Shown piece by piece: positions 12,800 through 41,014 of a stretch of DNA of 64,000 nt; the stretch's first letter is position 1, and every line of letters begins with the position of its first letter. The notes under the pieces were generated by a model, which saw only the letters and a program-made list of their open reading frames with translations, did no database searches and had not been told where the DNA came from. Both the position numbers and the translations under genes were made by a program. This DNA is from an uncultured Dehalococcoidia bacterium (GTDB taxonomy: Bacteria; Chloroflexota; Dehalococcoidia; Lucifugimonadales; CATQGZ01). The stretch covers positions 4,987-68,986 of the forward strand of contig CAZMZE010000021.1 in NCBI GenBank assembly GCA_964570875.1. Direction: 5' to 3'.

Positions 12800-15019
12800 T
12801 TAGCTGGTGACGGCGCGCTGCAGAGAGTTCAACCAAGTGTCTGATGCCAAATTAACAGGCAAGTCTATTAAATCTCCAATTTTAATATTTTCTCCACCAA
12901 CCATTCCAATCTGAACATAGGGCAAATTCATTGATCGACACACATTTTCCATTTCGGTAATTTTCTCTTTAGGTAAAGACACCAATATCCTAGACTGGGC
13001 TTCTCCAAACAAAAATGCATCCCATCTCTCCCCAATCGTCAAACTTGACTCAAACCCAATATTACCATCAATACAACTCTCTGATAGTGCCACAGCAAGG
13101 CCTCCTTCAGAGAGATCATGAGCAGAGCTTATGATCTCTTTTTTAATCAAGCTGATGCACGTCTTTTGCAGATTTATTTCTAAATCCAAATCAATATGTG
13201 GCTGTCCGGCGACCAAGTTATGAGTCAATTCCAAATATTCGCTTCCTGCAAGTGAATTGATATCCGGTGAGGCGCTGTTCATACCTAACACAACAACGAT
13301 ATCGCCTGACTCCTTGAATCCTATACCCACTCGACAATTAACATCATCAAGTAATCCTAACGCTCCTACAACAGGTGTCGGATAAATTGCCACATCCTGA
13401 CTTTCGTTATACAAACTTACATTTCCACTCACAACCGGTGCTGAAAATGCCTTACTTGCCTCAGCCATTCCTTTAACACATTGTTCGAGCTGAAAATATA
13501 TGTCTAATTTTTCTGGATTCACAAAATTCAAACAGTCTGTTAATGCAATTGGTTCAGCCCCTGTGCAAGCTAAATTCCTACATGCTTCTGCAACCGATAT
13601 AATACCTCCTATGAATGGATCTAGGAAGCATAATCGGCTATTGCCATCGGTAGTTAATGCTATTCCTTTGGAGGTATTCTTGACCCTTAACACCGCCGCA
13701 TCACCACCCGGCCCATCAACGGTATTCGTCTGTACTTGATGGTCGTATTGCCGGTAAACCCAACGCTTGCTCGCGATAGTATGAGAATTTAAGAGATCTA
13801 GCAAAATATTTTGAGCATTCAGACCCTGAATTTGCAACTCAGAAAGTGGGTATCGCTGAAGTTCATACATTTCGTCAGTCTTCAAACCGATGTATTCGTA
13901 TAGAGGTGGATCGGTCAAAATATCTACTGGTACGGAAGCACACAACTCTGCTCCATCATATATTTTTGCTAAACCATCTTCTGTTACAGATCCGATCACA
14001 ATTGAGTCGAGATCCCATTTTTCGAATATATTAGTAATTTCACTCTCATAACCTGATTCGACAACAAGTAACATTCTTTCCTGCGATTCCGATAGCATCA
14101 CTTCATACGGTTCCATTCCTACATCTCTTCTCGGAATCAAAGCAACATCTATCTCTATTCCTCTTCCTTCTTTCGCTGCTATTTCCACAGATGCACTTGT
14201 GAGCCCTGCGGCTCCCAAATCCTGTACTCCAATTACATGTTCGTTCGACACAGCTTCCAAACAGGCCTCTATCAATACTTTTTCCAAAAAAGGGTTGCCA
14301 ACCTGAACAGTGGGTCTAAGCTCTCTGTCATCCTCAAAAGTCCTAGACGCCAGCCCTGAGGCGCCGTGAATGCCATCACGCCCCGTATCAGCTCCGACCA
14401 ACATGAGTAAATTACCCGGATCTCCGCTTTTTGATTGGACCAATGATTCCGTTTCCAAGAGACCCACACACATAGCGTTAACCAGAGGATTTCCAGAATA
14501 AGATTCACCAAATATTATCTCTCCGCCAATATTGGGGACTCCTATACAATTTCCATATCCAGAAATACCCGCCACTACTCCTTGACAAAGATGTCTGTTG
14601 TTTTGCTCATTAAGAGGTCCAAAATGCAGAGAGTTTAACAATGCAATAGGCCTCGCTCCCATGGCAAAAATATCTCTCACAATCCCTCCAACACCAGTCG
14701 CTGCGCCCTCATATGGTTCTATTGCTGATGGATGGTTATGAGATTCGATTTTCATCGCCACCGCTAAACCATCTCCAATATCAACAACTCCCGCATTTTC
14801 TTCCCCAGGTTTCACCAATAGTCGTGGACTGTCGGCCGCAAACATACGCAACAATTTCTTGGAGTGTTTATAGCCACAGTGTTCGCTCCACAAAGAACCA
14901 AATAATCCTAATTCCAACTTGTTGGGTTCTCTTCCAAGTCTAGTGACTATTTGTTTATATTCGTCATCGGAAATCGCCAATTCATCTAGCATTTGTCCGA
15001 TTATGGTCGACTGTTTCAT
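12800..15019 (-). CDS. purL: phosphoribosylformylglycinamidine synthase subunit PurL
   Basis: 739 aa. Has EHCGYKHS, ESHNHPSAIEPYEGAATGVGGI.RD and the duplicated AIR-synthase-like architecture. Sits directly downstream of purQ. Confidence 0.95.
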   Translation of the reverse strand: MKQSTIIGQMLDELAISDDEYKQIVTRLGREPNKLELGLFGSLWSEHCGYKHSKKLLRMFAADSPRLLVKPGEENAGVVDIGDGLAVAMKIESHNHPSAIEPYEGAATGVGGIVRDIFAMGARPIALLNSLHFGPLNEQNNRHLCQGVVAGISGYGNCIGVPNIGGEIIFGESYSGNPLVNAMCVGLLETESLVQSKSGDPGNLLMLVGADTGRDGIHGASGLASRTFEDDRELRPTVQVGNPFLEKVLIEACLEAVSNEHVIGVQDLGAAGLTSASVEIAAKEGRGIEIDVALIPRRDVGMEPYEVMLSESQERMLLVVESGYESEITNIFEKWDLDSIVIGSVTEDGLAKIYDGAELCASVPVDILTDPPLYEYIGLKTDEMYELQRYPLSELQIQGLNAQNILLDLLNSHTIASKRWVYRQYDHQVQTNTVDGPGGDAAVLRVKNTSKGIALTTDGNSRLCFLDPFIGGIISVAEACRNLACTGAEPIALTDCLNFVNPEKLDIYFQLEQCVKGMAEASKAFSAPVVSGNVSLYNESQDVAIYPTPVVGALGLLDDVNCRVGIGFKESGDIVVVLGMNSASPDINSLAGSEYLELTHNLVAGQPHIDLDLEINLQKTCISLIKKEIISSAHDLSEGGLAVALSESCIDGNIGFESSLTIGERWDAFLFGEAQSRILVSLPKEKITEMENVCRSMNLPYVQIGMVGGENIKIGDLIDLPVNLASDTWLNSLQRAVTS

Positions 15020-16419: not shown

Positions 16420-17880
16420 CTAAAACTTGTCTATAGCTGTTCTAATAGAACATAGAACTTTTTCTCTTCCCAGTATTTCTAAGGATTCAAATAATGGAGG
16501 AGCTACCTTTAGCCCGGTCACAGCCACCCTAATAGATCCAAAGAGCTGGCCAATCTTGATCCCTAGCGTATCTGCTAAAACGCGCATTTCTGCTTCCATT
16601 GGTTCAGAATCAAAATGCTTTATTTTCGATAATAAATCGTGTGCTGATTCCAGAGCAGATCTAGTAAGCTCATGGTCCATATTTTTTTGGATTAATTCTT
16701 CCTTAGAATAATCTAACTCCTGGTCAAAAAAGAATCGTGTCAACGCCAATGCATCACTCATTATTTTTATCCGTTCACGAATAAGTGGTACAATCTTCTC
16801 TAAATAATCTATCTCAGGCAACTGTTTTAGGCCGACATCAGGGATAGATCCCCAATATTCCAGCAACTCACTAGCGAGCTTTTTATCATCCAGTGCGCGT
16901 AAATATTGGCTGTTTAGCCAAAGTAATTTTTGTTGATCAAATATTGCGCCAGCTTTGCTAACTTTGGTTATGGAAAAATATTCAACAAGTTCCTGTCTAT
17001 TCAGTACTTCGGTCTTATCGTCAAGTGACCATCCCAGCAGTGCAAGAAAATTAACCACCGCTTCTGGTAAATATCCGTCCTTTTTGTATTCAAGCAAAGA
17101 TGCAGCACCATGACGTTTACTTAATTTAGTTTTATCTGAAGCCAGTATCATGGGAACATGTGCAAAATCTGGAGGTGACCAACCCAAAGCTGAATAGATT
17201 TGTAAATGACGCGGGATACTCGAAAGCCACTCTTCAGCTCTTACAACATGACTGATATCCATCGATTTGTCATCAACCACATTGGCCAGATGATAAGTTG
17301 GGAAGCCGTCGGATTTCAATAGTACAAAATCATCAATCAGTTTGTTTTCAAAAGTTACAGTCCCACGAACCATATCGTTTACAGAAGTTGTCCCTTCCAG
17401 TGGCATCTTGAATCTCACCACAGGAGTGGTTTTACCTTTCTCCCATTCAATCCTTTCTGCGATACCCATTCCCCTGCACCGTCTATCATAGCCAGGGTCT
17501 TTTTTTAACCTAGATTGCTTATTTCTAAGTTCCTTCAGTCGTTGGGTAGAACAAAAACAATAATATGCATGTCCGCTTTTAAGAAGTTGGGATGCTACAT
17601 CACGATACCCATCCAACCTCAGGGACTGCAGATATGGTCCGTATTTGCCACCAATATCAGGCCCTTCATCCCAATCTAGCCCTAGCCATTTCAAAGATTC
17701 CAACAGCGCCTGAGTGGCTCCCGGTACTTCACGAGTCTGGTCAGTATCTTCGACCCTAACAATTACAGTGCCTTTATTATGCCTGGCGAATAGCCAATTA
17801 AATACGGCTGTCCTAATATTGCCTACATGCGGGTCTCCAGTAGGGCTAGGAGCAAATCTAACTCTAATCTTTTTATCCAT
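16420..17880 (-). CDS. gltX: glutamate--tRNA ligase
   Basis: RFAPSPTGDPHVGNIRTA (HIGH-type motif), KLSKRHG (KMSKS) and 486 aa. Confidence 0.95.
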   Translation of the reverse strand: MDKKIRVRFAPSPTGDPHVGNIRTAVFNWLFARHNKGTVIVRVEDTDQTREVPGATQALLESLKWLGLDWDEGPDIGGKYGPYLQSLRLDGYRDVASQLLKSGHAYYCFCSTQRLKELRNKQSRLKKDPGYDRRCRGMGIAERIEWEKGKTTPVVRFKMPLEGTTSVNDMVRGTVTFENKLIDDFVLLKSDGFPTYHLANVVDDKSMDISHVVRAEEWLSSIPRHLQIYSALGWSPPDFAHVPMILASDKTKLSKRHGAASLLEYKKDGYLPEAVVNFLALLGWSLDDKTEVLNRQELVEYFSITKVSKAGAIFDQQKLLWLNSQYLRALDDKKLASELLEYWGSIPDVGLKQLPEIDYLEKIVPLIRERIKIMSDALALTRFFFDQELDYSKEELIQKNMDHELTRSALESAHDLLSKIKHFDSEPMEAEMRVLADTLGIKIGQLFGSIRVAVTGLKVAPPLFESLEILGREKVLCSIRTAIDKF

Positions 17881-20850: not shown

Positions 20851-21903
20851 TTATGCGGTATCGGTATAAGCAGATCGAACCAATTCTTCTGTTTCAGCCC
20901 ACCCTATGCAAGCATCAGTAATTGAAACACCGTACTCCAGCTCTGAAGGTTCTCCCAAAGACTGGCTGCCAGAATTGATATTACTCTCGATCATTACTCC
21001 AACTATTCCTTTATTTGATCTTCGCTGGTCCAATAGATTTTGGAACACTACTGATTGCCTCTTATGATCCTTGTTAGAGTTGCCGTGAGAACAATCAACC
21101 ACCAAATTTGGTTTGAGTCCTCTGTCTGATAGCATTTTTTGAGCTAGTGCCAGAGAGTCACTATCGTAATTGGGTCCGGTCTTACCGCCTCTCATAATCA
21201 AATGTCCAGTTGGATTCCCCTTAGTTCTAACCACTGCTGCCACTCCTTCGTCATCTATGCCCAAAAAAACATGTTCAGCTCTCGCAGCTACTATTCCATC
21301 AACGGCAATTTCGATCGTGCCTCCGGTCCCATTCTTGAATCCAATTGGCATACTCAACCCACTAGCCATCAACCGATGCGTTTGACTTTCCGTAGTTCTG
21401 GCACCGATCGCACCCCACGAAACAAGATCTCCAAAATATTGTGGAGCAAATGGCTCTAAAAATTCCGTCGCAGCCGGTAATCCAGTATCACACACATCTA
21501 GCAAAAACTTACGAGCTTTCGCCATCCCTTGCTTTACATCATAGGTTCCATTCAACAGAGGATCATTGATATAGCCCTTCCACCCAACAGTGGTTCTAGG
21601 CTTTTCAAAATAAACCCTCATGGCAACCAATATCTTATCTTTCACTTCTGATGCTAATACTGATAATCGATTTGCATACTCAAGTCCTGCATCAGGGTCA
21701 TGAATAGAACATGGCCCTACTATCATCAACAAGCGTTCATCAGATCCTTCTAATATATTTGATACCTGAAGACGATATTCTGTTACCTGTTGCTTTATCC
21801 CATCGTTAGAAGGGAATCGTCTCCAATACTCCGACGGTGGCTCCAGAGTAGTGATACTACTCACTCTGACGTTGTGAAGCGCCGTATTGTCTGTCTGAGC
21901 CAT
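20851..21903 (-). CDS. aroG: 3-deoxy-7-phosphoheptulonate (DAHP) synthase, class I
   Basis: 350 aa. Has LLMIVGPCSIHD, RVYFEKPRTTVGWKG, and GARTTESQ.HR in the arrangement of AroF/G/H-type enzymes. The isozyme specificity is not determinable. Confidence 0.9.
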   Translation of the reverse strand: MAQTDNTALHNVRVSSITTLEPPSEYWRRFPSNDGIKQQVTEYRLQVSNILEGSDERLLMIVGPCSIHDPDAGLEYANRLSVLASEVKDKILVAMRVYFEKPRTTVGWKGYINDPLLNGTYDVKQGMAKARKFLLDVCDTGLPAATEFLEPFAPQYFGDLVSWGAIGARTTESQTHRLMASGLSMPIGFKNGTGGTIEIAVDGIVAARAEHVFLGIDDEGVAAVVRTKGNPTGHLIMRGGKTGPNYDSDSLALAQKMLSDRGLKPNLVVDCSHGNSNKDHKRQSVVFQNLLDQRRSNKGIVGVMIESNINSGSQSLGEPSELEYGVSITDACIGWAETEELVRSAYTDTA

Positions 21904-21917
21904 AAATATCCTCCATG

Positions 21918-22005
21918 AAAAAACCCTAACCGATTTCGGTCAGGGCCTCTAATATCCGTTTTTCTATTTGCGGAGTATTCCTTTAGGAAACAAGAGCCCT
22001 CACCG
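21918..22005 (-). promoter_or_regulatory. aroG 5' leader attenuator: antiterminator segment plus intrinsic terminator
   Basis: The minus strand reads CGGTGAGGGC (22005-21996), about 50 nt, then G-CCCTGACCG-AAAT-CGGTTAGGG (21945-21924; 9-bp stem with one G-U) and TTTTTT (21923-21918). GGAGG and the ATG at 21903 follow. The upstream decamer pairs 9/10 with the 5' arm of the terminator. Confidence 0.6.
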
Positions 22006-22077
22006 GCAACACTTGGCACCGGTAAAATAGAAATATGCCCCTATGTTCTTATAGTTACACTCACTCACGATGCTCAA

Positions 22078-22107
22078 ATGATATGCTCGTTACAAACCAT
22101 GTGTCAA
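22078..22107 (-). promoter_or_regulatory. sigma70-type promoter candidate for aroG leader
   Basis: Minus strand: TTGACA (22107-22102), 18 nt, then TATCAT (22083-22078). Confidence 0.45.
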
Positions 22108-22175
22108 TTGAAAATTTGCTATAAAACTGACCACATGTTACATTACGCGTAATTATATTACGGACGAGGTGCCTT

Positions 22176-22577
22176 ATGAATGATAACTCCAATAGCCCCG
22201 AAAATAACTTGAGACAACAAATTGAGACCCTGGTGGAAGATGCCAACAACGTACTTAATTCAGCCGCTATAAGCAGTTCAAAAACTGCTCAGTCAGTTAA
22301 AGGGAGATTGAAGAATAGGATTAATGAAACGCGCGACGCAGTTCGATCCGCACGTGACAGTGTTGTCATGGTCAGAATTAACAAGACCAGCTTGTCAAGA
22401 CTAGATGAATTGGTTGAGGCTAAAATAGTTAGAAGCAGATCTGAAGCCGCAGCGTTCCTTATTGAAAAAGGAATCGAATCAAAGCAAGATTTGTTCGACA
22501 TAATGGCAGAAAAACTTGAACAGATCAGGCAAACCAGAGATGAACTAAGTCACCTCTTGGAAGATGATAAGTTGTAG
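22176..22577 (+). CDS. ribbon-helix-helix (CopG/Arc-like) domain protein
   Basis: 133 aa. VVMVRINKTSLSRLDELVEAKIVRSRSEAAAFLIEKGI fits the RHH pattern of beta-strand, helix, then an SRSE-initiated helix. GAGG RBS. Confidence 0.5.
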   Translation: MNDNSNSPENNLRQQIETLVEDANNVLNSAAISSSKTAQSVKGRLKNRINETRDAVRSARDSVVMVRINKTSLSRLDELVEAKIVRSRSEAAAFLIEKGIESKQDLFDIMAEKLEQIRQTRDELSHLLEDDKL

Positions 22578-22684
22578 AGATTGTTGAGGATGAATTCTAT
22601 TAACAACTTCGTTACCATTTGATTTGCGTTGCACCAAAACGTAGGCATCCCAATAAATAGATCTAGTTAATTCTAAATATTCTC

Positions 22685-28565: not shown

Positions 28566-28640
<75 letters not shown>

Positions 28641-39630: not shown

Positions 39631-40908
39631 CTAAGATACAAGAGAGCCTTGTAAAGACCAAGGCCCAGTCTTTTTGACACGCACATTTAGCATCTCACCA
39701 GTTCTATCATCTACGGATTCAAAGAAAACAAGTTTATCGTTTCTGTTCCGTCCATACCATTTCCCTCGTTTTTGGCCTTCTACAAGTATCTCTACCTTTT
39801 CATTGGATAACTTTGAGTTAATTTTGCTAACAACATCTTCTTGGAGAGCCTCTATAGCTTTTAATCTCAACTGTTTATCTTCATCAGGAACATCATCTTC
39901 CATCGTTCTAGATGCTATAGTACCCGGTCGATTCGAATAAGCTGCAACGTGTACTTTATCAAACTTGATATCCCTAACTAGTTCGAGAGTTTTTTCAAAC
40001 TGACTTTCTGATTCCCCTGAAAACCCTACTATTATATCGGTACTTATCGAAACATTGGGTACCAATTCTCTTATAGTATCAACTAATTTACGATATTCGT
40101 TGTTAGTGTACCCTCTTCTCATTCTTGTAAGTATCTTGTCATCACCGGCTTGGAAGGGAAGATTGAAATGCTCACATACTTTATCAAGGGAGGACACTGA
40201 TTTGATTATCCGTTCAGTCATGTCATTTGGATGAGAGGTCAGGAATCTAATCCTTTGGAGTCCTTGGATGTCATTAATTTTTGTAAGCAGGTCTGATAAA
40301 TCTGGTTTACCCGTCAAATCATGTCCATAAGAGTCCACATTCTGCCCCAGCAGAGTAACTTCTTTAACCCCTCTCGCAACCAATAATTCAGTTTCTCTAA
40401 CAATATCGTCAATATCCCTACTTACGTCCCTACCTCTCCTATAGGGAATAATGCAGAAGGAACACATTTTATCGCAGCCATGGCTAATTGGTATATATGC
40501 AGTAACATCCGGCTTTGCAACGAGTGGACCAATACAACCCTCTGGGTCAATTTTCATCCTCTCTCCCAGTAGCTCTATCAACGGTTCGAATTGCTGAGGA
40601 GCCATGAACAAATCAGCATAAGGATATTTGTTTTCAAGAGTTTCTGTCTTTGGCCCAACCATACAACCCATCAAAGCAATAATTTTTTCAGGATCGCGCT
40701 GTTTAAGCGGCTTAAGACTAGTTAACATTCCAATTGCCCTGTCTTCGGCGCTTTGCCTAACGACGCAGCTGTTCAAAACAATCACGTCAGCATCGTTCGG
40801 AGTCTCGACGTTGGTCAATCCCATTTGAGTCATGGCACTTTCAAGGCGTTCAGAATCAGCCATGTTCATCTGGCATCCAATTGTCCATATGTGGTAATTT
40901 TGTATCAT
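39631..40908 (-). CDS. miaB: tRNA-i6A37 methylthiotransferase MiaB
   Basis: YHIWTIGCQMNMADSE (N-terminal UPF0004 Cys), radical-SAM CDKMCSFCIIP, C-terminal TRAM domain. Start reset to ATG 40908 because the track ORF N-terminus runs through the tRNA-Ser gene. Confidence 0.9.
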   Translation of the reverse strand: MIQNYHIWTIGCQMNMADSERLESAMTQMGLTNVETPNDADVIVLNSCVVRQSAEDRAIGMLTSLKPLKQRDPEKIIALMGCMVGPKTETLENKYPYADLFMAPQQFEPLIELLGERMKIDPEGCIGPLVAKPDVTAYIPISHGCDKMCSFCIIPYRRGRDVSRDIDDIVRETELLVARGVKEVTLLGQNVDSYGHDLTGKPDLSDLLTKINDIQGLQRIRFLTSHPNDMTERIIKSVSSLDKVCEHFNLPFQAGDDKILTRMRRGYTNNEYRKLVDTIRELVPNVSISTDIIVGFSGESESQFEKTLELVRDIKFDKVHVAAYSNRPGTIASRTMEDDVPDEDKQLRLKAIEALQEDVVSKINSKLSNEKVEILVEGQKRGKWYGRNRNDKLVFFESVDDRTGEMLNVRVKKTGPWSLQGSLVS

Positions 40909-40922
40909 GATAATCAGATATA

Positions 40923-41014
40923 TGGCGGAGGGAATGGGATTCGAACCCATGACCCCTGTCTCCAGGGGTAACCGCTTAGCAGGCGGCCGCACTAGACCTC
41001 TATGCGATCCCTCC
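40923..41014 (-). tRNA. tRNA-Ser (GCU anticodon)
   Basis: The reverse complement folds as acceptor GGAGGGA/TCCCTCC, anticodon stem GCCGC/GCGGT with loop CTGCTAA, long variable arm CCCCTG-GAGA-CAGGGG, T arm ATGGG-TTCGAAT-CCCAT, discriminator G and encoded CCA. Confidence 0.9.

What the first reader, a model, noticed from the sequence alone, without database searches (positions are those of the whole stretch)
21904..22107. Transcription attenuator in the DAHP synthase leader, with a Tyr/Phe-rich mini-ORF ending inside the antiterminator
All of the following is read on the minus strand. A promoter TTGACA-18-TATCAT (22107-22078) comes first. About 70 nt downstream is CGGTGAGGGC (22005-21996). About 50 nt further is a strong intrinsic terminator, CCCTGACCG-AAAT-CGGTTAGGG plus TTTTTT (21945-21918), directly abutting the GGAGG RBS and the ATG of aroG. 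The upstream decamer pairs 9/10 with GCCCTGACCG, the 5' arm of the terminator, so the two structures are mutually exclusive in a classic antiterminator/terminator layout. No upstream gene on this strand needs a terminator here, and convincing intrinsic terminators are otherwise scarce in this window. A mini-ORF (GTG 22068, or TTG 22077) encodes (M)SECNYKNIGAYFYFTGAKCCR. Its TAT-TTC-TAT-TTT run is at 22035-22024 and its TGA stop (22002-22000) lies inside the antiterminator decamer. A ribosome reaching the stop would mask the antiterminator, so the terminator forms. A ribosome stalled at the Tyr/Phe codons 18 nt upstream would leave the antiterminator free, giving read-through. That is the expected logic for aromatic amino-acid control of the first shikimate-pathway enzyme. 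Weak points: the ORF has only GTG or TTG starts and no good SD. With the predicted promoter, the GTG would sit about 3 nt from the transcript start. A protein- or ligand-mediated switch is equally possible.
Basis: partly seen in the sequence, partly recalled or inferred. Interest (0 to 1): 0.6.

Follow-up and report, generated by a model that had tools for sequence, protein, structure and literature searches.

The report
Tyr/Phe leader-peptide attenuator of DAHP synthase
The stretch in front of this marine Chloroflexota bacterium's first aromatic-amino-acid gene very probably lets the gene be transcribed only when a ribosome stalls for lack of tyrosine or phenylalanine; the mechanism is long known elsewhere, but I found no record of it for this phylum.

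Summary
The attenuator reading is supported by comparison only; nothing was measured. This gives the full 1:2 / 2:3 / 3:4 layout of the E. coli trp attenuator.

The window comes from a marine Chloroflexota MAG. Nine relatives (AroG 69-79% identical) have the same build: a -35/-10 promoter, exactly 9 nt, a GTG or ATG, an ORF of 22-33 codons with a run of Tyr/Phe/Trp codons ending in segment 1, then antiterminator and terminator. This explains the missing Shine-Dalgarno and the GTG start: the leader ORF is leaderless or nearly so, as in actinobacterial attenuators.

Compensatory changes support the terminator (8 of 12 pairs) and the antiterminator (5 of 12). Aromatic leader ORFs precede aroG in 21 of 37 Chloroflexota loci against 1 of 41 from other phyla.

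The closest known case is Corynebacterium glutamicum aroR-aroF. There is no Rfam match, and I found no paper on Chloroflexota attenuators. It is a new member of a known kind, of moderate interest.

The parts
22102..22107 (-). -35 hexamer TTGACA
   Evidence: The same hexamer, or one with a single mismatch, is found in all 9 close relatives.
22078..22083 (-). -10 hexamer TATCAT, 18-nt spacer from the -35
   Evidence: 11 of 12 match. TAnnnT is conserved in all 10 family members, always 9 nt before the leader start codon.
22000..22068 (-). Leader ORF from GTG 22068 to TGA 22002-22000, encoding (M)SECNYKNIGAYFYFTGAKCCR (22 aa). It has no Shine-Dalgarno and starts 0-3 nt from the predicted transcript start.
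   Evidence: GTG is chosen over TTG 22077 because all relatives start 9 nt after the -10 hexamer. L088 has an ORF of identical length with the same TGA position, although its 5' half has diverged.
22024..22035 (-). Regulatory codons TAT TTC TAT TTT (Tyr-Phe-Tyr-Phe, codons 12-15); an extra Tyr at codon 6
   Evidence: Every close relative has a run of 2-5 aromatic codons at the aligned position, with synonymous and Y/F/W exchanges.
22017..22027 (-). Segment 1 (UUUUACCGGUG), the 5' arm of the anti-antiterminator; overlaps the last two aromatic codons and Thr-Gly
   Evidence: MFE fold. The core UUUACCGG/CCGGUGAA is 82-86% paired across relatives.
21993..22008 (-). Segment 2. Pairs either with segment 1 (22008-21998) or with segment 3 (22005-21993). 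Contains the leader stop codon.
   Evidence: It is the most conserved block of the alignment, GCCGGTGA(A/G)G.
21937..21950 (-). Segment 3 (AGAGGCCCUGACCG), shared by the antiterminator (with segment 2) and the terminator (with segment 4)
   Evidence: Column 145 of A2 covaries both with segment 2 (UA:8, CG:4, UG:3) and with segment 4 (AU:10, GC:6).
21918..21932 (-). Segment 4 plus U-tract (CGGUUAGGG UUUUUU). With segment 3 and the AAAU loop (21936-21933) it forms the intrinsic terminator.
   Evidence: Hairpin energy -19.9 to -20.3 kcal/mol. 98.5-99.2% paired, with 5-8 of 12 pairs showing compensatory changes.
21910..21914 (-). Shine-Dalgarno GGAGG of aroG, 3 nt after the U-tract and not sequestered by the terminator
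20851..21903 (-). Regulated gene: class-I (AroG/F/H-type) DAHP synthase, 350 aa. The next gene downstream is convergent, so aroG looks monocistronic.
   Evidence: Pfam PF00793, E 1.5e-82; ORF map

Best explanation
This is a ribosome-mediated (leader-peptide) transcription attenuator that sets DAHP synthase expression according to charged tRNA-Tyr and tRNA-Phe.

Proposed sequence of events (inferred, not measured):
1. Transcription starts at or within about 3 nt of GTG 22068. A ribosome loads on this leaderless or near-leaderless start without a Shine-Dalgarno and translates the 22-codon leader while RNA polymerase moves on.
2. When Tyr and Phe are plentiful, the ribosome runs to TGA 22002-22000 and covers segment 2. 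If the leader is not translated at all, segment 2 is locked in the 1:2 hairpin. Either way segment 3 is free to pair with segment 4. The terminator (21950-21918) forms and the transcript ends before aroG.
3. When tRNA-Tyr or tRNA-Phe is scarce, the ribosome stalls on codons 12-15 (22035-22024) and covers segment 1. Segment 2 then pairs with segment 3 as soon as segment 3 is made. The terminator cannot form and aroG is transcribed.

Shown here: the sequence anatomy, the mutually exclusive helices and their energies, and conservation and covariation in relatives. Inferred: the transcript start, translation of the ORF, stalling, and premature termination.
For: Anatomy and energetics in the window
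- The promoter, ORF, aromatic codons and three alternative helices are all present.
- As free RNA, the 1:2 + 3:4 conformer is favoured: -50.7 against -39.2 kcal/mol with 2:3 enforced.
- With a ribosome footprint on Tyr14 or Phe15, the gap shrinks to 4.7 or 2.7 kcal/mol. In the transcript made up to the terminator loop, 2:3 is the best fold.
- With the footprint on the stop codon, 2:3 cannot form.

Close relatives
- All ten close family members (AroG 69-79% identical to the window) have a -35, 17-18 nt, TAnnnT, exactly 9 nt, then GTG (8 cases) or ATG (2 cases), an aromatic run, and segments 1-4.
- By chance, only 4 of 3779 ATG/GTG codons in the window have a strong promoter 6-10 nt upstream.
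- The ORF frame is kept although its 5' half has diverged in sequence. L088 has the same 22-aa length and the same stop position.
- Segment 2 is conserved as nucleotides while being read in two different frames: CCR*/TRR* in the window and L088, AGEVL... in the others. The constraint there is on RNA; on the run it is on codon class.

Covariation
- Terminator: 99.2% of cells paired with 5 compensatory pairs on 10 sequences; 98.5% with 8 on 17 sequences.
- Antiterminator: 91.7% with 3 compensatory pairs, and 86.6% with 5. The second figure comes from an alignment whose model did not include this helix.
- Slid controls pair only 18-59% of cells.

Distribution
- Short ORFs with at least 4 aromatic residues in 7 occur upstream of aroG in 21 of 37 Chloroflexota loci against 1 of 41 loci from other phyla (Fisher p = 5.5e-8). 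Across all loci, 38 of the 49 positives also have a hairpin plus T-run.
- 31 of those 49 leader ORFs start 6-10 nt after a promoter.

Population level
- Against strain variants there is 1 difference in the 204-nt leader, in the 1:2 loop. The 68 nt just upstream of the -35 carry 8 differences.

Precedent
- C. glutamicum aroR (Phe-Tyr-Phe) attenuates aroF (PMC4046766; PMC11802643, citing Neshat 2014).
- Leaderless leader peptides occur in Streptomyces (PMC8079986).
- Leaderless AUG/GUG mRNAs are reported in Deinococcus and mycobacteria (PMC4007540; bioRxiv 10.1101/834739).
Against: - There are no experimental data of any kind. The organism is uncultured.
- The YFYF run in the window alone is within chance (shuffle p about 0.12-0.17).
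- The 1:2 core shows no compensatory change in the 10-sequence alignment. It shows only 3 in the 17-sequence alignment, which was fitted to that structure. Its conservation could partly reflect the Phe-Thr-Gly codons.
- At equilibrium the terminator conformer stays the more stable one even with segment 1 masked, so the switch depends on co-transcriptional kinetics, which were not modelled.
- With the usual 7-nt distance from the -10 hexamer, the transcript would start about 3 nt before the GTG, so it may not be strictly leaderless. GUG-initiated leaderless translation is untested in Chloroflexota.
- No long gene in the window has a comparably placed promoter, so leaderless initiation is not shown to be common in this organism.
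Confidence: 0.85

Rival explanations
1. The terminator/antiterminator switch is real but is flipped by a trans factor: an RNA-binding protein, an uncharged tRNA (T-box-like), or a small ligand. On this view the short ORF is incidental.
For: - The ORF lacks a Shine-Dalgarno and starts with GTG.
- The aromatic run in the window alone is not significant.
- The 1:2 helix has little covariation in its core.
Against: - No Rfam family, T-box or riboswitch included, matches the window leader or 10 related loci, even at permissive E-values.
- The region between segments 2 and 3, where an aptamer would sit, varies in sequence and length.
- An in-frame start codon at a fixed 9 nt from the -10 hexamer in 10 of 10 relatives, and aromatic codon runs conserved as a class with synonymous and Y/F/W exchanges, make no sense without translation.
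Confidence: 0.07
2. The hairpins are constitutive: a 5' stabilising structure, a leaky insulator, or a pause element. They set a fixed expression level, with no response to amino acids.
For: At equilibrium the terminator is always the most stable conformer.
Against: - The three-way covariation of segment 2, segment 3 and segment 4 shows selection for the alternative 2:3 pairing, which a constitutive terminator does not need.
- A strong terminator directly before the only promoter-proximal gene would simply silence it.
- The link with aromatic codons upstream of an aromatic-pathway gene is phylum-wide.
Confidence: 0.04
3. The main product is the short terminated transcript or the 22-aa peptide acting in trans, as described for rnTrpL/peTrpL in Sinorhizobium. 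Control of aroG in cis would be secondary.
For: There is precedent for attenuator-derived sRNAs and peptides with trans functions (PMC6614838, PMC7298713). The terminated leader would be a stable, structured RNA of about 150 nt.
Against: - The peptide is not conserved outside the aromatic run, and its C-terminus is read in different frames in different relatives.
- The element is always directly upstream of aroG, and only one copy exists in the window.
- A trans role would add to cis attenuation rather than replace it.
Confidence: 0.04

Closest known systems
Corynebacterium glutamicum aroR-aroF attenuator (Neshat et al. 2014, as cited in PMC11802643; first noted in PMC4046766 and PMC3890552)
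   Same: A short leader ORF with a Phe-Tyr-Phe run sits upstream of a DAHP synthase gene. [quoted passage not shown] Same target enzyme step, same sensed amino acids, same logic.
   Different: - The phylum differs (Actinomycetota against Chloroflexota).
- Sequence relatedness could not be tested because no C. glutamicum sequence is available in these tools. Independent origin is likely.
- Tyr codons here are at least as frequent as Phe codons, whereas PMC11802643 reports that Tyr supply had no effect in C. glutamicum.
E. coli trpL-trp operon attenuator (Yanofsky; classic four-segment model, from established knowledge)
   Same: Four segments give 1:2 (anti-antiterminator/pause), 2:3 (antiterminator) and 3:4 (terminator plus U-tract). 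The regulatory codons overlap segment 1, and the stop codon positions the ribosome over segment 2.
   Different: - It senses Trp and controls the trp operon.
- trpL has a normal 5' UTR with a Shine-Dalgarno and an AUG.
- There is no sequence similarity: the Rfam leader families did not hit.
E. coli / gammaproteobacterial pheL-pheA attenuator (Rfam Phe_leader; PMC3082878)
   Same: A leader peptide with a run of aromatic (Phe) codons controls an aromatic-pathway gene through terminator and antiterminator.
   Different: - It has Phe codons only.
- The regulated gene is pheA (chorismate mutase/prephenate dehydratase), not DAHP synthase. In E. coli the DAHP synthase genes are repressed by TyrR/TrpR proteins (PMC11802643).
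- There is no covariance-model match here.
Leaderless leader-peptide attenuators of Actinobacteria (Streptomyces lividans trpL1, leuL, ilvL, PMC8079986; mycobacterial poly-Cys leaderless uORFs, bioRxiv 10.1101/834739)
   Same: The leader ORF begins at the transcript 5' end with AUG or GUG and has no Shine-Dalgarno. Several are followed by a Rho-independent terminator.
   Different: - Other amino acids and other target genes are involved.
- The transcript starts there were mapped by RNA-seq. Here the start is only inferred from the fixed 9-nt spacing between the -10 hexamer and the start codon.

Membership tests
Ribosome-mediated (leader-peptide) transcription attenuators | Short ORF in the 5' leader, enriched in codons for the end-product amino acids of the regulated pathway | tested here: met
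   The window has a 22-codon ORF with Y-F-Y-F plus one more Y, upstream of DAHP synthase. Aromatic runs occur at the aligned position in all 9 close relatives. The link to Chloroflexota aroG loci has p = 5.5e-8.
Ribosome-mediated (leader-peptide) transcription attenuators | Intrinsic terminator between the leader ORF and the structural gene | tested here: met
   The stem has 11-14 bp, a 4-nt loop and U6, at -19.9 to -20.3 kcal/mol. It is 98.5-99.2% paired, with 5-8 compensatory pairs. It is one of only 4 such sites in 64 kb.
Ribosome-mediated (leader-peptide) transcription attenuators | Antiterminator helix that shares one arm with the terminator (mutually exclusive) | tested here: met
   A 12-bp 2:3 helix, duplex -21.0 kcal/mol. 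It is 86.6-91.7% paired, with 3-5 compensatory pairs, and the shared position covaries with both partners.
Ribosome-mediated (leader-peptide) transcription attenuators | Regulatory codons placed so that a stalled ribosome frees the antiterminator, and a terminating ribosome or untranslated RNA blocks it | tested here: met
   Segment 1 overlaps codons 14-17. The stop codon lies inside segment 2. Footprint-masked folds behave as the model requires. This geometry is computed, not measured.
Ribosome-mediated (leader-peptide) transcription attenuators | Leader ORF is translated, and read-through responds to amino-acid or charged-tRNA supply | not testable with these tools
   This needs Term-seq, ribosome profiling or reporter assays. 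The only indirect support is the conserved promoter-adjacent start codon.
Curated Rfam leader families (Phe_leader, Trp_leader, His_leader, Leu_leader, Thr_leader and others) | Covariance-model match at or near the gathering score | tested here: not met
   No leader family matched at E <= 10 in window 21500-22600 or at E <= 1 in 10 related loci. The only weak matches were terminator-driven (NsiR1, Spot_42), far below their gathering scores.
T-box / riboswitch leaders | Match to a known aptamer or T-box model; a conserved ligand- or tRNA-binding core upstream of the terminator | tested here: not met
   No Rfam hit. The spacer between segments 2 and 3 is not conserved.
C. glutamicum aroR-aroF attenuator (as a homologous family) | Sequence or structure homology of the leader to aroR | not testable with these tools
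Only the functional parallel is documented (PMC4046766, PMC11802643).
Leaderless leader-peptide genes (actinobacterial type) | Transcript 5' end coincides with the AUG or GUG of the leader ORF; no Shine-Dalgarno | tested here: inconclusive
   The -10 hexamer is followed by exactly 9 nt and then the start codon in 10 of 10 close relatives, and by 6-10 nt in 31 of 49 wider family members. That predicts a 5' UTR of 0-3 nt. The transcript start was not mapped.

The most novel reading that the evidence does not exclude
The window element is one member of a large, uncatalogued family of aromatic (Tyr/Phe/Trp) leader-peptide attenuators that control class-I DAHP synthase across Chloroflexota (Dehalococcoidia/SAR202-type marine and subsurface lineages). 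About 50 of the loci fetched here belong to it. They are typically translated from leaderless or near-leaderless GUG/AUG starts. If so, this would be the first evidence that coupled transcription-translation attenuation operates in this phylum. It would also give a sequence-readable marker of Tyr/Phe limitation in abundant uncultured ocean bacteria.
Probability: 0.55. Interest if true: 0.5.

Novelty: new member of a known kind. Interest (0 to 1): 0.4.

Why it matters
The mechanism is textbook, and the target has a precedent (aroR-aroF in Corynebacterium). The value lies in extension rather than surprise.

- It shows that leader-peptide attenuation, including its leaderless form, operates in Chloroflexota. 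I found no description of such elements for this phylum, which is mostly uncultured.
- It defines an alignment and a covariance model that could become an Rfam family.
- It implies tight transcription-translation coupling in these slow-growing marine bacteria.
- It offers a way to read Tyr/Phe status from metatranscriptomes, as the ratio of terminated to read-through leader transcripts.
- It improves annotation, because the leader ORFs are not called by gene finders.

Tried and rejected
- Rfam scans found no known family. I scanned the leader at E <= 10, the whole window at gathering thresholds, and 10 related loci at E <= 1. The weak NsiR1, Spot_42 and toxic-sRNA matches are driven by the terminator and were rejected.
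- The consensus terminator scan did not list the real terminator. Its stem extends into the U-tract. Instead it flagged the 1:2 hairpin. I replaced it with my own hairpin plus T5 scan.
Closer relatives had to be fetched one at a time through the look-up of encoding contigs.
- Testing the window's aromatic run against shuffles gave no significance (p about 0.12-0.17). That argument is dropped for the window alone.
- I looked for leaderless-type promoters in front of long genes in the window and found none. I cannot claim that leaderless initiation is general in this organism.
- TTG 22077 is rejected as the start. It abuts the -10 hexamer, and no relative has a start there.
- The alternative upstream promoter TTCATA-17-TATAAT (22180-22152) is not favoured. 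It is not conserved: that region differs at 8 of 68 positions even between strains.
- Literature searches for attenuators in Chloroflexi, Chloroflexota or SAR202 found nothing relevant.
Full report
**1.

| Element | Coordinates |
|---|---|
| TTGACA, 18-nt spacer, TATCAT | 22107-22078 |
| ORF start candidates | TTG 22077, GTG 22068 |
| TAT-TTC-TAT-TTT | 22035-22024 |
| TGA stop, inside CGGTGAGGGC (22005-21996) | 22002-22000 |
| Terminator CCCTGACCG-AAAT-CGGTTAGGG-TTTTTT | 21945-21918 |
| GGAGG | 21914-21910 |
| aroG ATG | 21903 |

- The promoter is the best sigma-70-like match (11 of 12) in the 15 kb scanned.
- The downstream ORF (21903-20851) is a class-I DAHP synthase: PF00793, E 1.5e-82.
- The upstream neighbour (DUF883, 22176-22577) is divergent. 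The terminator therefore sits in a 5' leader and serves no upstream gene.
- The leader folds better than all 200 dinucleotide shuffles, z = -3.9.
- A scan of both strands of the 64 kb for a hairpin of -12 kcal/mol or better followed by T5 finds four sites. One is this terminator, and two of the other three lie antisense inside ORFs. The remark that good terminators are scarce here is correct.
- The YFYF run by itself is not beyond chance in this AT-rich spacer. In the near-identical copies L081-L084, 12-17% of shuffles of the upstream region do as well.

**2.

- The minimum-free-energy fold shows an 11-bp hairpin between UUUUACCGGUG (22027-22017) and UGCCGGUGAGG (22008-21998). Its energy is -11.5 kcal/mol, or -17.8 when extended over 22044-21990.
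- Its 5' arm overlaps the last two aromatic codons. Its 3' arm is the antiterminator arm.
- The 2:3 pairing is also longer than stated. It has 12 bp (22005-21993 with 21950-21937), with one mismatch and one bulge. The duplex energy is -21.0 kcal/mol, against -23.0 for 3:4.
- The leader therefore has the complete four-segment layout of the classic trp attenuator: 1:2 anti-antiterminator, 2:3 antiterminator and 3:4 terminator.

**3. Source organism**

- The AroG protein is identical, or nearly so, to proteins on Tara Oceans and ENA marine contigs. One member of its 90% cluster is an NCBI protein annotated 'Chloroflexota bacterium'.
- In the species-representative genome set, the best relatives are Dehalococcoidia/SAR202 MAGs at 69% identity or less.

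**4. Close relatives have the same device**

I fetched the DNA around AroG proteins 69-79% identical to the window's: L088-L091, L001 and L172-L178. All nine distinct relatives, and the window, show the same order of parts:

- a -35 hexamer (TTGACA or one mismatch), 17-18 nt, and a TAnnnT -10 hexamer;
- exactly 9 nt, then GTG (8 cases) or ATG (2 cases);
- an ORF of 22-33 codons with a run of Tyr/Phe/Trp codons that ends in TTT-ACC-GG, which is segment 1;
- the block GCCGGTGA(A/G)GTCTTG, which is segment 2;
- a variable spacer, then a terminator hairpin with a U-tract.

| Locus | Leader peptide |
|---|---|
| Window | (M)SECNYKNIGAYFYFTGAKCCR |
| L088 | (M)DTHPQTRRSYDPYFTGAITRR (same length, same TGA position) |
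| L173 | (M)SHADMYRSYYFYFTDASARAGEILTLHVET |
| L175 | (M)SNMSVFTIWGGYYYFTGGTATGEVLAPHTMSM |
| L176 | MDRESSARDFYYYSGRAQPCAGEVLTLHAHT |

Three points follow.

- **The fixed 9-nt spacing is not chance.** The intervening bases are not conserved, and only 4 of 3779 ATG/GTG triplets in the window have a comparably strong promoter 6-10 nt upstream. It predicts a 5' UTR of 0-3 nt. The leader ORF is leaderless or nearly so, as mapped for Streptomyces leader peptides (PMC8079986), and as known for AUG/GUG mRNAs in Deinococcus and mycobacteria (PMC4007540; bioRxiv 10.1101/834739). It also identifies GTG 22068, not TTG 22077, as the start.
- **The aromatic run is conserved as a codon class.** Codons interchange among TAT/TAC, TTT/TTC and TGG, and among Y, F and W, while the 5' half of the ORF diverges freely.
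- **Segment 2 is conserved as nucleotides although it is read in two frames.** The window and L088 read ...CCR* or ...TRR*; the others read ...AGEVL... and stop 8-10 codons later. The constraint there is on RNA.

**5. Covariation**

| Helix | 10-sequence alignment A1 | 17-sequence alignment A2 |
|---|---|---|
| Terminator 3:4 | 99.2% of cells paired; 5 of 12 pairs compensatory; slid controls 28-59% | 98.5% paired; 8 of 12 compensatory |
| Antiterminator 2:3 | 91.7% paired; 3 of 12 compensatory; slid controls 18-47% | 86.6% paired; 5 of 12 compensatory; 0 of 500 shuffles reach the score |
| 1:2 core | 85.6% paired; no compensatory change | 82.2% paired; 3 of 9 compensatory |

- A2 was made with covariance model R1, which encodes only the 1:2 helix and the terminator. 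The antiterminator counts on A2 therefore come from an alignment that was not fitted to that helix. The 1:2 counts on A2 do come from a fitted alignment.
- One segment-3 position covaries with both partners: UA:8, CG:4, UG:3 with segment 2, and AU:10, GC:6 with segment 4. That is the signature of selection for two mutually exclusive helices.
- For 1:2, each sequence folded alone forms the hairpin, with inner stems that differ in sequence. I rate 1:2 as conserved but less firmly proven than the other two.
- Between strain variants of the window, the 204-nt leader has a single change, at 22013 in the 1:2 loop. The 68 nt upstream of the -35 have eight.

**6. A wider family**

- Among 162 fetched aroG loci with enough upstream DNA, 49 carry a short ORF with at least 4 aromatic residues in 7. 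Of these, 38 also have a hairpin plus T-run.
- Examples are MKQFIYTYYYFRR, MIQNYFTYYYYFKKRRANCRV, MNTLNGFFYYFWFTDARHREAAS and ...GYYRPFYFYAYR....
- In the taxonomically labelled set, 21 of 37 Chloroflexota loci are positive against 1 of 41 loci from other phyla (Fisher p = 5.5e-8).
- 31 of the 49 leader ORFs begin 6-10 nt after a promoter, mostly a perfect TTGACA.
- R1 gives full-length matches in further Dehalococcoidia and metagenomic loci: L035, L054, L028, L029, L046, L080, L114, L143, L136, L110 and L105. It gives only one hit in the window.
- Some Chloroflexota lack the leader because aroG follows chorismate mutase/trpA-type genes in an operon: L002, L019, L020 and L179.

**7. Mechanism (inferred)**

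- As free RNA, the 1:2 + 3:4 conformer is favoured by 11.5 kcal/mol over the best structure that contains 2:3. An untranslated leader therefore terminates.
- With a ribosome footprint centred on Tyr14 or Phe15, segment 1 is covered. The energy gap falls to 4.7 or 2.7 kcal/mol. In the nascent transcript that ends at the terminator loop, 2:3 is the best fold. The antiterminator forms first and pre-empts the terminator.
- With the footprint on the stop codon, segment 2 is covered and 2:3 cannot form.
- Scarcity of charged tRNA-Tyr or tRNA-Phe should therefore give read-through into aroG, and sufficiency should give termination at about 21918.
- The switch is kinetic, as in the classic cases, because at equilibrium the terminator always wins.
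- The 1:2 hairpin followed by GCUCUUGUUU was itself flagged terminator-like. It may serve as the pause site that synchronises polymerase and ribosome. This is speculation.

**8. Comparison with what is known**

- The logic and geometry are those of E. coli trpL and pheL (PMC3082878; established knowledge).
- The target and the sensed amino acids match the C. glutamicum aroR-aroF attenuator, whose leader has Phe-Tyr-Phe (PMC4046766, PMC3890552; PMC11802643 citing Neshat et al. 2014).
- The leaderless start matches actinobacterial leader peptides (PMC8079986).
- The element is not a member of any curated Rfam family.
- Full-text searches found no paper describing attenuators in Chloroflexi, Chloroflexota or SAR202. 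A broad survey of premature terminators does not mention Chloroflexi or DAHP synthase genes.
- Subscription-only literature, such as the comparative surveys by Lyubetsky and co-workers, could not be searched. Prior description cannot be excluded.

**9. Verdict**

- It is a new member, in a new phylum and with many relatives, of a well-known kind of regulator.
- Confidence in the ribosome-mediated attenuator reading is about 0.85. Confidence in the leaderless detail is lower, about 0.65, because no transcript start has been mapped.
- Interest is moderate: it extends known biology rather than surprising a specialist.

Noticed in passing
window 21998-22027 (-): The 1:2 hairpin followed by GCTCTTGTTT is itself listed as terminator-like by the consensus scan. 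It could be the RNA-polymerase pause site that couples transcription to leader translation.
   Followed up: partly
window 13099-13144 (+): The strongest hairpin plus T-run of the whole window (14-bp stem, -19.2 kcal/mol) lies antisense inside the 739-aa ORF 12800-15019 (-). Its purpose is unknown.
   Followed up: no
L005-L013 and L061, about 150-300 nt upstream of aroG: A Dehalococcoidia subgroup (GC about 57%) has longer leader ORFs ending ...YRW[F/S]YICRRRA*. These are followed by four segments with GCGCG/CGCGC cores but no U-tract terminator. They may be attenuators with a U-less or Rho-dependent output, as reported for some actinobacterial leaders (PMC8079986).
   Followed up: partly
L002, L019, L020, L179 (upstream of aroG): In these Chloroflexota, aroG has no leader. 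In L179 it directly follows a chorismate mutase (CM_1) gene and trpA, apparently in an operon. L002, L019 and L020 show the C-terminal end of an upstream coding region running up to aroG.
   Followed up: no
L063, 61 nt upstream of aroG: This is the only positive outside Chloroflexota. A Proteobacteria MAG has the leader MTRTWRSYVSFFFFPLRG, starting 6 nt after TTGACT-17-TAAGTT. No hairpin plus T-run was detected.
   Followed up: no
window 22108-22175 compared with L081-L083: The 68 nt between the -35 hexamer and the divergent DUF883 gene differ at 8 positions between strain variants. The flanking leader and coding sequences differ by 1% or less. This is a local hotspot, or relaxed constraint, in the shared promoter region.
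   Followed up: partly
window 17280 (-): A TTGAAA-18-TATCAT-9-GTG arrangement, with the same spacing as the aroG leader, lies inside the 486-aa ORF 16420-17880 (-). That ORF contains a KLSKRHG motif and looks like an aminoacyl-tRNA synthetase. The arrangement is probably chance, or an internal promoter.
   Followed up: no
window 40926-41014 (-) and 28566-28637 (+): Two tRNA genes were found. The first overlaps the 5' end of the mechanically called ORF 39631-40992, so that ORF's GTG start is probably called too far upstream.
   Followed up: no
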